The notes below the pieces were generated by a model. It made no database searches, had not been told where the DNA came from, and saw only the letters and a program-made list of their open reading frames with translations. A stretch of 64,000 bases of DNA, taken from the NCBI GenBank assembly GCA_934101145.1, contig CAKOPZ010000001.1:5279-69278 (forward strand), read 5' to 3'. Position 1 is the stretch's first letter. The number at the start of each line of letters is the position of its first letter. Shown one piece after another: positions 11,580-23,061 of this stretch. The stretch is from an uncultured Clostridia bacterium (GTDB lineage Bacteria; Bacillota; Clostridia; TANB77; CAG-508). The position numbers were made by a program, and so were the translations under genes.

Positions 11580-11687
11580 TATAAAAATAGTGAAAAATAA
11601 TAAAAAAACCATTATTAGAAAATTAAAGTACACCTTAAATGTTGGAAAAATCTGATATTTATAGGTGTATTTTCTGTTTTAAATTTA

Positions 11688-11716
11688 TTGCAGGAAAAAA
11701 TTAAGTATGATAAAAT
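11688..11716 (+). promoter_or_regulatory. Sigma-A-type promoter candidate for helicase gene copy A
   Basis: TTGCAG, 17 nt, TAAAAT. The same arrangement is conserved upstream of copy B (17870-17898). Confidence 0.4.
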
Positions 11717-20900: not shown

Positions 20901-23061
20901 TGCTATAGATGAAGACAACCCAGTGCCAGAAGATAAGAGACCAGTTGTAGTAGATTTAGCAAATAATACATTGACAGTAAAAATGGAAAAAGAATTTAAC
21001 AAAACAGAGCCAATGGATGATTTAGAAGCACTAACAATGGTGATAGAGTGGATAAATGAACATGATGGAATTATGCCAGATAAAAATAGTTCGAGCAAAC
21101 AAGAGCAACACTATTATGCTATTTTAAGAAGAGTGCAAAATAAGTATGGTAAATATCTAGATGGTTTTGAGGATGCAGAAGATTTAACACAAGAAGATAA
21201 AGCAAGAATACAAGAGGTGATAGGGCTTGCATCTGAAATAGATTTATGGGATGCAGAATTACCACCAATACCAAGAACAAGAGGAAAGGCAGAGCAACTA
21301 GACCCATTTGCAATAACAGGAGTTTTAAAGGACTATGTTGAGTTTGAAAATGAAATTGATTCAAATGAAAATGCAACAACATATGAAAAAGTAATAGAGT
21401 GGTTAGAAACGCATGAAGGAAAATTGCCTGGTCAGAGAAAAGAAGCAACAAAAGAAGAAGTTAATTTATACAATAGATGGCATAATTCAGAAGAGAGAAA
21501 AAAGTTAGATGAGTATGTAGGAGTGCTAATAGAAGAAATACCAGAGAAATATAGAGAAAAAATAGCAAGATTAAGAGAATTAATAGTAGTAAAAAAGACA
21601 GCATATGAAGAAGTAATAGAGTGGTTAGAAACGCATGAATGTAAGTTACCTGGCTGTGGAAAAAAAGCAACAGAAGCAGAAAAGAAATTAGCTCAGAGAT
21701 GGAATGATTCAAAAGAAAGGAAAAAGTTAGAAGAGTATGCAGGAGTGCCAATAGAAGAAATACCAGAAGAATATAGAGAGAAAATAGCAAGGTTAAGAGA
21801 GTATGGATTGGGAGAGAGAAAAAAGACAGCATATGAAGAAGTAATAGAGTGGTTAGAAAGTCATGATGGTAAATTGCCTAATCAGAGAAAAGAAGTTAAT
21901 TTATATAAGAAATGGTATAACTCAGAAGAGAGAAAAAAATTAGAAGAGTATGAAGGAGTAACAATAGAGGAAATACCAGAGGAATATAGAGAAAAAATAG
22001 CTAGATTAAGAGAATTAATAGCAGTAAAAAAGACAACATATGAAAAAGTCATAGAGTGGTTAGAAACGCATGAATGTAAGTTACCTGGCTGTGGAAAAAA
22101 AGCAACAGAAGCAGAAAGAAGATTATATGACAGTTGGTATAACTCAGAAGAGAGAAAAAAATTATATGAGTATGTAGGAGTACCAATAGAGGAAATACCA
22201 GAAGAATATAGAGAAAAAATAGCAAGATTAAGAGAGTATGGATTGGGAGAGAGAAAAAAGACAGCATATGAAGAGATCATAGAGTGGTTAGAAACACATG
22301 GAGGAAAATTGCCTAGTGCGGGACGAAAAGGAGCAACAGAAGAAGAAGTTAATTTATATAAGAAATGGTATAAATCGAAGGAAAGGAAAAAGTTAGAAGA
22401 GTATGCAGAAGTGCCAATAGAGGAAATACCAGAAGAATATAGAGAGAAAATATCAAGATTAAGAGAATTAATAGTAGTAGAAAAGACAGCATATGAAGAG
22501 GTCATAAAGTGGTTAGAAACGCATGAAGGTAAGTTACCTGGCTGTGGAAAAAAAGCAACAAAAGAAGAAGGTAATTTACATCAGAGATGGTATAAATCAG
22601 AAGAGAGGAAAAAGTTAGAAGAGTATGCAGGAGTGCCAATAGAAGAAATCCCAGAGGAATATAGAGAGAAAATAGCAAGGTTAAGAGAGTATGGATTAGG
22701 AGAGAAAAAAAGGACAGCATATGAAGAAGTAATAGAGTGGCTAGAGACACATGAGGGTAAATTACCGGGTAATGGAAAAAAAGTATCAAAAGAAGAAAAA
22801 AATTTATATCAGGGATGGTATAAATCAGAAGAAAGGAAAAAGTTAGAAGAGTATGCAGGAGTGCCGATAGATGAAGTACCAGAGGAATATAGAGAAAAAA
22901 TAGCAAAGCTAAGAGAATTTGGAATAATGGGGAAAAGAAAATTAAATCAAGTAAAACAGCAAAGAGATGAAGCAAAAAGTGAAAATAATAAGGCAAAGGA
23001 ATTGGAAAAGGAAGTTGAAGAAGAGCTAAAAAGAAAAGGCAGAACTCATGCAGAACGTTAA
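17932..23061 (+). CDS. Giant multidomain helicase protein, paralog B (same architecture as 11750-16903)
   Basis: 1709-aa ORF. The first ~1113 aa are identical to copy A, with three synonymous differences in the first 40 nt. The C-terminal HA-like repeats are diverged; several carry a Cys pair (HECKLPGCGKK) and an alternative linker (REYGLGERKK). Confidence 0.85.
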   Translation: MEDKLFDIGNFNVIQDEDNYYFFRALNMEDNNDIEQGITRDNDGKIERIRTDRERYEGIAKYGETSKISLEEVYDHIKMHHRKDTNCISLTSNGNVAVGYGRGTYKDRYTMVKIPKEEIGVKVVTAGQYMLQEVYERIEETLGKLSEDEKEKILGIFEEIDKTEENKTLQNMIAKRYSAKKEEINPSKAHLRKGIVYSSPTPRISSYQALSERQLLEVNKVYAKLAVLENENKLKHVIEHLSNSKLREGIGNAFSSMEVIHYGDIAKENIIEIPKEVADIFAIVQQAEEIDKSRVEEVKRALIEAVQSGKEIPQIPEIQSEVRDNISIEEMYELTGGKVEYGRASFIARSMFYLSKSRQNAIALSNVLEEVLGRNSEFEDIIDYVRDDGFRIEPEIITRESNQGIKLSEAVSLNISKEEQNLIEEIKKLSHEELSNVLENGGLLNIKDIISEVYGNDKNSQIDKSRYYAEAIIDKYNWKDIGIEGFKIAERNELVSRLQGKNCEEIYNRLNETGIEESQITKILLNIAMREGFYEQYEQGNIEELLSTKQDILQDNINIELVERFLGYYDIENTEIRLKDYQQRAYNHVDKIFNDKKFAQVILPTGAGKSFVALAQMQKYASEHQKEKMLYLAPQDEILNQMKRYITKYIHGKQNTVGKSEEEIIAEVFPNITFETYSGLLAKRGEEITKEEYGMIVLDELHRTGAKEWEGKVNELLENQGEDVKVLGITATPTRDVDGRDMAEETAKKLGYTEEEVKQGKHIASNMTLENAIRMGYVVNPKLVYCKYDLIASGKMDRLIEKIEGIEDQTKKAEEIKKYFDLRTKLNEDIDKEIGEDTRKKLEEEARKNLDSGIGKEEILKQNVKKGGKYIVFLPVSDQGDIEDEDGNRIGTKTGEDKILAYQDYINKVFEGTEIVPQLHSLLGSYSKDKNKEELEAFESDRTDDTKFMVVMNKLNEGIHVDGVDGIIWFRALDDNSRILYLQQLGRAIYAIDEDNPVPEDKRPVVVDLANNTLTVKMEKEFNKTEPMDDLEALTMVIEWINEHDGIMPDKNSSSKQEQHYYAILRRVQNKYGKYLDGFEDAEDLTQEDKARIQEVIGLASEIDLWDAELPPIPRTRGKAEQLDPFAITGVLKDYVEFENEIDSNENATTYEKVIEWLETHEGKLPGQRKEATKEEVNLYNRWHNSEERKKLDEYVGVLIEEIPEKYREKIARLRELIVVKKTAYEEVIEWLETHECKLPGCGKKATEAEKKLAQRWNDSKERKKLEEYAGVPIEEIPEEYREKIARLREYGLGERKKTAYEEVIEWLESHDGKLPNQRKEVNLYKKWYNSEERKKLEEYEGVTIEEIPEEYREKIARLRELIAVKKTTYEKVIEWLETHECKLPGCGKKATEAERRLYDSWYNSEERKKLYEYVGVPIEEIPEEYREKIARLREYGLGERKKTAYEEIIEWLETHGGKLPSAGRKGATEEEVNLYKKWYKSKERKKLEEYAEVPIEEIPEEYREKISRLRELIVVEKTAYEEVIKWLETHEGKLPGCGKKATKEEGNLHQRWYKSEERKKLEEYAGVPIEEIPEEYREKIARLREYGLGEKKRTAYEEVIEWLETHEGKLPGNGKKVSKEEKNLYQGWYKSEERKKLEEYAGVPIDEVPEEYREKIAKLREFGIMGKRKLNQVKQQRDEAKSENNKAKELEKEVEEELKRKGRTHAER
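21379..22923 (+). repeat. In-frame tandem repeat array encoding HA-like modules, copy B
   Basis: Seven units with [VI]I[EK]WLE[TS]H[EDG][GC]KLP. Two alternating linker subtypes are visible. Confidence 0.85.

What the first reader, a model, noticed from the sequence alone, without database searches (positions are those of the whole stretch)
11661..23061. Tandem giant helicase genes with a 3.3-kb perfectly identical core flanked by diverged ends
Two ~5.15-kb genes (1717 and 1709 aa) lie 1 kb apart in direct orientation. From about 11781 to 15090 (copy A) and 17963 to 21272 (copy B, offset 6182), I see no differences. Protein residues up to ~1113 and six antisense ORF translations are identical. 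The first 40 nt of the genes carry three synonymous changes. The upstream regions have substitutions and indels, and the 3' 1.8 kb (repeat arrays) is clearly diverged. Identity in the middle with divergence on both sides points to ongoing gene conversion of the N-terminal and helicase part, not a very recent whole-unit duplication. The C-terminal arrays appear free or selected to diverge. Such an arrangement is also a hotspot for deletion or amplification by homologous recombination.
Basis: seen in the sequence. Interest (0 to 1): 0.7.

Follow-up and report, generated by a model that had tools for sequence, protein, structure and literature searches.

The report
Tandem helicase genes; identity is assembly-made
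Two giant helicase genes do sit side by side in this gut Clostridia contig, but their "perfectly identical" 3.3-kb core is most likely a consensus written twice by the metagenome assembler, since the real copies appear to differ at about 52 sites, so it is not evidence of ongoing gene conversion.

Summary
Window 11780-15090 equals 17962-21272 exactly (3311 nt), inside two tandem genes of 1717 and 1709 aa with diverged ends.

The window's two proteins are identical to P0158 and P0172, which lie on one 133,669-nt metagenome contig. Four sister contigs are Hadza metaSPAdes assemblies (2x140 nt reads, k up to 77).

Across five such assemblies the flanks are identical: 0-1 difference in 12.8 kb, covering the upstream region, the copy A array, the spacer and the start of gene B. 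The core differs at 22-42 sites, always in both copies at once.

All 52 variable sites are biallelic. Neighbouring sites 80 nt apart or less always co-vary (42/42). Those 81 nt apart or more never do (9/9). That step sits at the assembler's largest k-mer.

A MEGAHIT contig of the same clone keeps copy A different from copy B at gene nt 121-200.

Best reading: the true cores differ by about 1.6% (dS about 0.045). metaSPAdes masked the differences and wrote one consensus twice. The core is still about six-fold less diverged than the flanks (dS about 0.3), so an older homogenisation is plausible, but ongoing conversion is not shown.

The genes belong to an uncharacterised helicase family, partly carried on mobile elements, with variable C-terminal helical arrays.

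The parts
11208..11579 (+). Small acidic 123-aa ORF, the conserved partner gene of this helicase family
   Evidence: No Pfam, NCBIfam or PADLOC hit. tblastn finds homologues at 37-64% identity directly next to the helicase in about 30 other loci. In most it lies just downstream of, or overlapping, the helicase stop; here and in the 44%-identity subgroup it lies upstream.
11671..11749 (+). Duplicated upstream leader of copy A
   Evidence: 79 nt, 92.4% identical to 17853-17931. Homology is lost further upstream.
11750..16903 (+). Helicase gene A (1717 aa): N-terminal domain 1-575, SF2 motor about 576-990, conserved linker to residue 1113, then seven units of about 75 aa and a charged tail
   Evidence: ORF. 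Pfam ResIII 2.3e-24, DEAD 1.4e-15, weak Helicase_C. The protein equals P0158. 768 homologues.
11780..15090 (+). Core tract in copy A that is written identically to copy B; inferred to be a collapsed consensus
   Evidence: Exact 3311-nt match. It differs at 22-42 sites between assemblies of the same clone whose flanks are identical.
15200..16903 (+). Copy A C-terminal array (units A1-A7) plus conserved tail
   Evidence: Unit parsing. 100% identical in the window, L001, L088 and L089. AF2 model of two units has pLDDT 87 with four helices per unit.
16962..17003 (.). Bidirectional terminator-like hairpin between gene A and parE
   Evidence: 18-bp stem with an A-run before and a T-run after it. This is a consensus scan only.
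17117..17470 (-). ParE/RelE-family toxin gene
   Evidence: Pfam ParE_toxin 2.9e-11. TIGR02385 RelE_StbE matches just below its cutoff. Present in the tandem contigs L001, L088, L089, L098 and L099 and absent from the single-copy contigs.
17424..17660 (-). Phd/YefM-like antitoxin gene overlapping the toxin start
   Evidence: Pfam PhdYeFM_antitox 4.5e-5, 23.6 bits, below the gathering score of 29.8. Position is typical of a type II toxin-antitoxin pair.
17853..17931 (+). Duplicated upstream leader of copy B
   Evidence: See 11671-11749.
17932..23061 (+). Helicase gene B (1709 aa as assembled; 1785 aa in three sister assemblies)
   Evidence: ORF. The protein equals P0172. L001, L098 and L099 carry a 1785-aa version.
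17962..21272 (+). Core tract in copy B (same consensus as 11780-15090)
21757..21839 (+). 83-nt stretch in the B array where the window lacks one 228-nt unit present in L001
   Evidence: Common prefix and suffix overlap by 83 nt. In L001 the 228-nt unit is bounded by an exact 83-nt direct repeat, longer than k=77, so seven versus eight units is an assembler path choice.
21382..23061 (+). Copy B C-terminal array (units B1-B7) plus conserved tail
   Evidence: Unit parsing. Against L001 B there is one substitution plus the 228-nt indel.

Best explanation
The locus holds two real, tandem, old paralogues of a giant SF2 helicase, separated by a terminator and a ParE/Phd toxin-antitoxin pair.

Their N-terminal and motor parts (gene nt 31-3341) are similar but not identical in the organism. 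They differ at about 52 or more sites (about 1.6%, dS about 0.045). The leaders, linker and C-terminal arrays are 7-30% diverged.

The window comes from a short-read metagenome assembly. The assembler masked the closely spaced A/B differences as bulges and kept one branch per bubble. It then threaded the contig through that single consensus edge twice, in the order upstream - core - A end/TA/B leader - core - B end. The two cores are therefore identical by construction.

The tract ends lie where at least 77 identical bases last separate a variant from the permanently diverged flanks.

What remains biologically is a tandem pair whose core was homogenised, or acquired, more recently than its ends. 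That is consistent with a past gene-conversion event. It is not evidence of perfect or ongoing conversion.

Shown: the tandem structure, the identity in the contig, the biallelic mosaics across assemblies, the linkage step, and the A versus B difference in the MEGAHIT contig. Inferred: the mechanism inside the assembler, and the interior phase of the differences.
For: 1. Source of the window. Window A equals P0158 and window B equals P0172, both on one 133,669-nt contig held by NCBI and ENA. Sister contigs L001, L088, L098 and L099 are Hadza metaSPAdes 'NODE' contigs. The Hadza methods are Illumina 2x140 nt, about 350-nt inserts, and metaSPAdes v3.13 with -k 21,33,55,77.

2. Documented assembler behaviour. 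The metaSPAdes paper states that it builds a consensus backbone, collapses bulges more aggressively than SPAdes, and resolves repeats longer than the insert on the masked consensus graph.

3. Variation confined to the core. Window versus L001, L088, L098 and L099 shows 0, 1, 0 and 0 differences in 12.8 kb of flanks (9,930 nt ending at ATG+30, plus 2,871 nt of A array, spacer, TA and B leader). The 3311-nt core shows 35, 42, 22 and 41 differences. In every assembly A equals B from nt 31 to 3341 (L088's B copy is cut by the contig end at nt 2098). A sixth tandem contig (P0159/P0176) also has identical core proteins.

4. Pattern of the variable sites. All 52 are biallelic. The window was compared with four other assemblies, and the phase patterns look like independent draws per block.

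5. Linkage step. Adjacent variable sites 80 nt apart or less are concordant in 42 of 42 cases. Those 81 nt apart or more are discordant in 9 of 9. All 18 phase switches fall in the long intervals (P about 0.001 if breakpoints were uniform).

6. Phase evidence from another assembler.
   - MEGAHIT contig L089 (flanks identical from window 7201 onward; 0 differences in 7.4 kb) has A different from B at gene nt 121, 122, 132, 135, 159 and 200.
   - The three k141 contigs that enter from the A side all carry the window allele there.
   - L093 ends at nt 341 = 200+141, and L092 ends at nt 85 = 30+55.

7. A second path choice. The same clone is assembled with seven or eight B units. The indel is bounded by an exact 83-nt repeat, longer than k.

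8. Real unevenness of divergence. Core dS is 0.045 (28 of 648 synonymous sites). The linker plus unit 1 has dS 0.30 (16 of 66.5), and the arrays have dS 0.27-0.41.
Against: - No reads were available, so allele fractions at the 52 sites in the window's own sample were not seen.
- The window contig's own record name and assembler were not retrieved. The exact look-ups failed, so its origin is inferred from cluster membership and identical sister contigs.
- Two site pairs 78 and 80 nt apart co-vary although k=77 should already separate them.
- MEGAHIT contig L089 passes through the whole of copy A without breaking, which simple unitig logic does not predict.
- The same data (A equal to B in six of six tandem assemblies, different between assemblies) is formally what very frequent real conversion from a heterozygous ancestor would give.
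Confidence: 0.8

Rival explanations
1. Real concerted evolution. Gene conversion between A and B is so frequent that each host's population has independently homogenised the whole 3.3-kb core to a different mosaic of two ancestral haplotypes. The tract ends are fixed by loss of homology in the flanks.
For: A equals B in all six tandem assemblies, while the cores differ between assemblies. The tract ends are the same everywhere. The diverged flanks could act as homology barriers.
Against: - It needs many complete, independent homogenisations in lineages that have accumulated 0-1 substitutions in 12.8 kb of flanks.
- Once A equals B, no variation is left to make new mosaics.
- The phase-switch step at 80/81 nt matches the assembler's k=77, not any known recombination property.
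- L089 shows A different from B inside the tract.
- Identity of the two copies is guaranteed by the assembler whatever the truth.
Confidence: 0.1
2. One chromosomal copy plus an excised or episomal 6.2-kb circle (core + A array + TA + B leader), or a population mixture of tandem and deleted genotypes. The assembler linearised this as a tandem.
For: - The de Bruijn graph for a tandem and for 'single copy plus circle' is the same.
- Single-copy contigs with an A-type upstream region and the B downstream flank exist in related strains (L002, L003, L007).
- Recombination between the direct repeats would produce exactly such a circle.
Against: - The circle carries no replication function (Pfam).
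- Two core haplotypes at roughly equal weight recur in every sample, as expected for two fixed chromosomal copies.
- MEGAHIT contig L089 joins upstream - A - TA - B leader.
Confidence: 0.05
3. A very recent duplication of the whole unit, with the ends diverging fast afterwards.
For: The exact 3311-nt identity in the contig.
Against: - Unique (non-repeat) flanks inside the duplicated unit are 7-8% diverged, with dS about 0.3.
- The A/B flank differences are fixed and identical in all assemblies, including diverged strains.
- There is no mechanism for a step change in mutation rate at nt 30 and nt 3342.
Confidence: 0.01

Closest known systems
Collapsed or consensus paralogous repeats in short-read de Bruijn assemblies (metaSPAdes bulge masking and repeat threading)
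   Same: The repeat is longer than the insert. Variation is confined to the repeat, is biallelic, and is chosen independently per bubble. Both copies are spelled from one consensus edge. A second path ambiguity occurs at an 83-nt exact repeat.
   Different: Not verified at the read level. The step lies at 80/81 nt rather than 77/78.
Concerted evolution of bacterial paralogues by gene conversion (for example tufA/tufB and rRNA operons; named from my own knowledge)
   Same: The middle of the unit is much less diverged (dS 0.045) than its ends (dS about 0.3). This is the signature of a conversion tract bounded by diverged flanks.
   Different: The perfect identity and the 'paralogues more alike than orthologues' pattern are not trustworthy here. 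The inferred true state is 1.6% divergence, so ongoing conversion is not shown.
Helicases with C-terminal HA (helicase-associated, Pfam PF03457) repeat arrays, for example Ruminococcus albus 7 pRUMAL01 RUMAL_RS21050 and RS18410
   Same: The best plasmid-borne matches to the motor (25-27% identity, E about 1e-22) are annotated this way. They share the plan of ResIII/DEAD plus Helicase_C followed by an array of 65-75-aa helical units with a similar motif order. The two R. albus genes are also adjacent.
   Different: Our units do not reach Pfam HA, and hhalign against eight R. albus units is in register but not significant (probability 2.6%). Our proteins add a 575-aa N-terminal domain that R. 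albus lacks.
Polyvalent proteins of conjugative elements and phages (Iyer et al. 2017, PMC5512222)
   Same: Giant multidomain proteins with an SF2 ATPase, found next to relaxases on integrative mobilizable elements in some relatives.
   Different: None of the signature domains was detected (zincin MPTase, ART, methylase, ArdC-N, MuF). The motor is closer to RadD/XPB/ResIII than to the SWI2/SNF2 clade. Many family members, including this one, are chromosomal.

Membership tests
Assembly-collapsed paralogous repeat | The sequence comes from a short-read de Bruijn assembly whose inserts cannot span the repeat | tested here: met
   The window proteins equal P0158 and P0172 on a 133,669-nt metagenome contig. 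Sister contigs are Hadza metaSPAdes NODEs. Reads are 2x140 nt with about 350-nt inserts and k up to 77, against a 3311-nt repeat.
Assembly-collapsed paralogous repeat | Independent assemblies of the same genome differ only inside the repeat, at biallelic sites | tested here: met
   0-1 differences in 12.8 kb of flanks versus 22-42 in the core. 52 sites, all biallelic.
Assembly-collapsed paralogous repeat | Allele choice is linked within a k-mer and independent beyond it | tested here: met
   42 of 42 concordant at 80 nt or less and 9 of 9 discordant at 81 nt or more. P about 0.001 for the placement of 18 switches.
Assembly-collapsed paralogous repeat | Reads of a single sample carry both alleles at about 50/50 | not testable with these tools
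   No read data. The only indirect evidence is that MEGAHIT contig L089 keeps A different from B at nt 121-200.
Ongoing gene conversion / concerted evolution | Paralogues within a genome are more alike than orthologues between genomes, in sequence resolved copy by copy | tested here: inconclusive
   The pattern is present in the contigs, but the two copies are not independently resolved. The one phase-preserving assembly contradicts it for nt 121-200.
Ongoing gene conversion / concerted evolution | Divergence is uneven along the duplicated unit (tract versus flanks) | tested here: met
   Inferred true core dS is 0.045, against 0.27-0.41 in the flanks.
SF2 (ResIII/DEAD) helicases | Walker A/B motor domain plus a second RecA-like domain | tested here: met
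   ResIII 2.3e-24, DEAD 1.4e-15, Helicase_C 1e-3 (below cutoff). GAGKS and DELH motifs are visible in the translation. PDB sequence hits to RadD and XPB/Rad25 have E about 8e-4.
HA-domain helicases (PF03457) | C-terminal repeats match the Pfam HA model | tested here: not met
   No HA hit even at E up to 10 on two units. hhalign against R. albus HA units gives probability 2.6% and E 0.018, although it is in register.
Polyvalent proteins | Signature effector domains (MPTase, ART, methylase, ArdC-N and others) in the same polypeptide | tested here: not met
   Pfam, NCBIfam and PADLOC find only the helicase. The N-domain model has no PDB fold match.
Known anti-phage defence systems (PADLOC 2023) | Full-length match to a system component | tested here: not met
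   Only partial motor matches (HamB 4.8e-8 over about 90 residues; Cas3; mREase IV).
Type II toxin-antitoxin ParE/Phd | ParE-fold toxin preceded by an overlapping small antitoxin gene | tested here: met
   ParE_toxin 2.9e-11. PhdYeFM 4.5e-5, below the gathering score. The genes overlap at 17424-17470.

The most novel reading that the evidence does not exclude
The helicase and its small acidic partner form an uncharacterised two-gene module. The helicase has a 575-aa N-domain with no detectable fold relative, an SF2 motor, and an exchangeable array of four-helix units. The module moves on integrative mobilizable elements and has settled in the chromosome here. The C-terminal arrays would set target specificity, and this lineage would keep two copies with one shared motor sequence and two different arrays. 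Recurrent, though not perfect, conversion of the core would then be a real and selected feature of a specificity-diversifying system.
Probability: 0.15. Interest if true: 0.6.

Novelty: not a real feature. Interest (0 to 1): 0.2.

Why it matters
For this finding, the headline claim was a 3.3-kb perfectly identical tract as a sign of ongoing gene conversion. It should not be taken forward from this contig, because the identity is what metaSPAdes writes for any pair of similar long repeats.

More generally, 'concerted evolution' signals read from MAGs are unsafe. This case offers a cheap diagnostic that needs no reads. Compare replicate assemblies of the same clone and ask two things: is variation confined to the repeat, and does linkage between variable sites break at the assembler's k?

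The residual biology is modest but real:
- an old tandem pair with a younger core and two stable, different C-terminal arrays;
- membership of a large, unstudied helicase family of gut Clostridia that is partly carried on mobile elements.

Tried and rejected
- **Exact look-ups of the two window proteins.** These found nothing, although cluster listing later showed both are in the collection.
- **Genome-contig scan.** An alignment query would have been better.
- **Viral-contig scan.** No relatives found.
- **Other tandem pairs in the family.** I looked for other species with tandem copies, to test conversion on better assemblies. Of the 87 loci held when the copy count was made, only L001 had two copies. 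The later look-ups added four more contigs of the same lineage: L088, L089, L098 and L099.
- **N-terminal domain.** The AF2 model has pLDDT 75 and pTM 0.70, with no PDB fold match (best E 1.9) and no PDB sequence match outside the motor.
- **Repeat unit.** The AF2 model has pLDDT 87 and no PDB match (best E 0.9). Pfam at E up to 10 gives only noise-level hits (Tricorn_C1, LPD39, Ets). HA-domain membership by hhalign was inconclusive.
- **PADLOC.** No system matched.
- **Source names for homologues.** None available.
- **Random per-bubble choice.** At first this seemed contradicted by a run of 13 blocks differing between the window and L088. With five assemblies the switches are frequent and block-wise, so the run was chance.
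- **Recent whole-unit duplication.** Rejected on flank divergence.
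Full report
**1. The observation.**
The window holds two ORFs in direct orientation. A lies at 11750-16903 (1717 aa) and B at 17932-23061 (1709 aa). An ungapped comparison at offset 6182 gives a single exact run of 3311 nt, 11780-15090 = 17962-21272, which is gene nt 31-3341.

The proteins are identical to residue 1113. Gene nt 21, 27 and 30 differ synonymously.

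Homology begins about 80 nt before each ATG (79 nt at 92.4%) and ends at the stop codons. The 109 nt after the tract are 92.7% identical.

Each 3' part is an array of seven units of about 75 aa plus a charged tail. The 14 units are 67-90% identical at the nucleotide level, with no positional correspondence between A and B.

**2. Anatomy and surroundings.**
Each protein has four parts:
- a 575-aa N-terminal region with no family hit;
- an SF2 motor (ResIII 2.3e-24, DEAD 1.4e-15, weak Helicase_C);
- a conserved linker;
- the array.

Between the copies lie an 18-bp-stem bidirectional terminator-like hairpin (16962-17003), a ParE/RelE toxin (17117-17470, minus strand) and a Phd-like antitoxin (17424-17660, minus strand).

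Upstream are a topoisomerase (8086-10029), a frameshifted alr, and a 123-aa acidic ORF (11208-11579). Downstream are murA, ftsQ and DUF881 genes.

GC is about 30% throughout, with no compositional break.

**3. The family.**
768 homologues passed E 1e-5. The 1113-aa core is 44-77% identical across 80 gut-metagenome loci, whereas the C-termini vary in length and type. Some relatives score as Myb-like, PMBR, HNH_repeat or LysM.

The 123-aa ORF is a conserved neighbour in about 30 loci, usually overlapping the helicase stop.

Genomic contexts differ between relatives:
- In L005 the helicase sits in an integrated element that splits murA, with RepL, NikA-like, relaxase and a large serine recombinase.
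- In L097 it lies beside a Mob_Pre relaxase.
- In L094-96 it is chromosomal, next to a topoisomerase in the cell-wall/division cluster.

The best plasmid matches to the motor are 'Helicase associated domain' proteins. One example is a pair of adjacent genes on Ruminococcus albus pRUMAL01, one of which has 11 Pfam HA repeats. Our units align to those HA units in register but not significantly.

AF2 models were made of the N-domain (pLDDT 75) and of two units (pLDDT 87, four helices each). Neither has a PDB fold match. PADLOC finds no known defence system.

Only this lineage shows two copies: of the 87 loci held only L001 did, and the tandem contigs fetched later (L088, L089, L098, L099) belong to the same lineage.

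**4. First comparison with sister contigs.**
L001, a Hadza metagenome contig, has the same tandem locus. There too, A equals B over exactly the same tract, yet the window and L001 differ at 35 core sites, always in both copies. A third contig, L088, behaves the same way.

Taken at face value this is the textbook signature of concerted evolution.

**5. Why that reading fails.**

(a) Variation is confined to the core. The A array, spacer, TA pair, both leaders and 9.9 kb upstream are identical between the window and L001, L088, L098 and L099 (0, 1, 0 and 0 differences in 12.8 kb). The 3311-nt core differs at 35, 42, 22 and 41 sites. Ordinary strain divergence cannot be confined to the repeated segment.

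(b) All 52 variable sites are biallelic, and each assembly is a different mosaic of the same two states. A sixth tandem contig shows the same at the protein level.

(c) Linkage breaks at about the assembler's k. Adjacent variable sites 80 nt apart or less are always in the same phase (42/42). Sites 81 nt apart or more are never in the same phase across the five assemblies (9/9). All 18 phase switches fall in the long intervals (P about 0.001 under uniform breakpoints).

(d) The assemblies are short-read metaSPAdes builds.
- The window's proteins are P0158 and P0172, from one 133,669-nt metagenome contig.
- The sister contigs are metaSPAdes NODEs from the Hadza study, which used 2x140-nt reads, about 350-nt inserts and -k 21,33,55,77.
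- The metaSPAdes paper states that the program masks variation by collapsing bulges aggressively into a consensus backbone, and then resolves repeats longer than the insert on that masked graph.
- Two copies threaded through one consensus edge are identical by construction.

(e) An assembler with a larger k preserves phase near the tract edge.
- In MEGAHIT contig L089 (flanks identical from window 7201 onward; its 410-aa ORF region differs), A and B differ at gene nt 121, 122, 132, 135, 159 and 200.
- All three k141 contigs entering from the A side carry the window allele there.
- L093 ends at nt 341 = 200+141.
- L092, from an unnamed scaffolding pipeline (its record name does not identify the assembler), ends at nt 85 = 30+55.

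(f) The constant tract ends are explained. nt 30 to 121 and nt 3234 to 3342 are the outermost gaps with at least 77 identical bases. Variants inside them form closed bubbles, and variants outside are part of permanently separate branches.

(g) The same clone is assembled with seven or eight B units. The 228-nt difference is bounded by an exact 83-nt repeat, longer than k, so it is another path choice. P0176 shows yet another array path.

**6. What is probably true.**
Copies A and B differ in the core at 52 or more sites, about 1.6%. Taking all alternative alleles together gives dS 0.045 and dN 0.009.

Unique flanking segments inside the duplicated unit have dS of about 0.3 (16.3 of 66.5 synonymous sites for the linker plus unit 1). 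The arrays have dS 0.27-0.41 and dN/dS of about 0.3.

The core is thus about six-fold younger than the ends. A past conversion or replacement of the core is the simplest cause, but this is inference. The arrays are under purifying selection. The copy A array is identical in the four assemblies compared (window, L001, L088, L089), and the B array differs between the window and L001 only by one substitution and the unit-count ambiguity. They are therefore two maintained variants, not freely drifting sequence.

Single-copy contigs in related strains (L002, L003, L007) have an A-type upstream region, the B downstream flank and no TA pair. They could be real deletions by recombination between the copies, or assembler shortcuts. 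This cannot be decided here.

**7. Likely function (inferred).**
This is a DNA-tracking SF2 motor whose variable C-terminal helical array and small acidic partner determine what it binds. It originates from, and is still partly resident on, integrative mobilizable elements. No step of this has been tested.

**8. Verdict.**
- The tandem pair is real and ordinary.
- The perfectly identical core is, with about 0.8 confidence, an assembly product.
- Ongoing gene conversion is not demonstrated.
- Read mapping at the 52 sites, or one long read, would settle the question.

Noticed in passing
window 10072-11146 (frameshift near 10826-10850): alr (alanine racemase) is split into 259-aa and 89-aa ORFs by a 1-nt frameshift. 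The canonical GYGGTYKATEKTKIAVVSIGYADG motif reads on in the +1 frame. The same split is called in every sister contig, including diverged strains. It is therefore a fixed pseudogene or a frameshift-dependent gene, not a window-specific error.
   Followed up: partly
window 3796-5028 (and block 3300-7200): A 410-aa ORF with no Pfam hit is hypervariable between contigs that are otherwise identical: 94%, 86% and 72% protein identity in L089, L092 and L090. Window 3395-7200 (all of that block but its first 94 nt) has no counterpart in strain L002.
   Followed up: no
L090 13215-15342: A related strain has an extra 588-aa ORF made of GYD/GFD-rich short repeats. It ends in the same charged tail as the helicases and sits directly in front of (overlapping) the 123-aa partner gene. 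It looks like an orphan 'array plus tail' module.
   Followed up: partly
L005 5163-21201: In another species (64% identical helicase) the gene lies in an integrated mobilizable element of about 15 kb that splits murA. The element carries PRiA4_ORF3, RepL, NikA-like, relaxase, DUF6076, Bro-N and a large serine recombinase. This is the same gene that lies intact just downstream of copy B in the window.
   Followed up: partly
L100 4013-9152 (Ruminococcus albus 7 pRUMAL01): Two adjacent genes are annotated 'Helicase associated domain protein'. The first has an SF2 motor plus 11 Pfam HA repeats (E 1e-158). This is another tandem pair of array-bearing helicases.
   Followed up: partly
window 21757-21839: The window's copy B has seven array units, whereas three assemblies of the same clone have eight (1785 aa). 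The missing 228-nt unit is bounded by an exact 83-nt repeat, so the window's B gene is probably one unit short because of assembly.
   Followed up: yes
window 1-64000: No Rfam family reaches its gathering score anywhere in the window. The region beyond 27 kb was not examined further.
   Followed up: no
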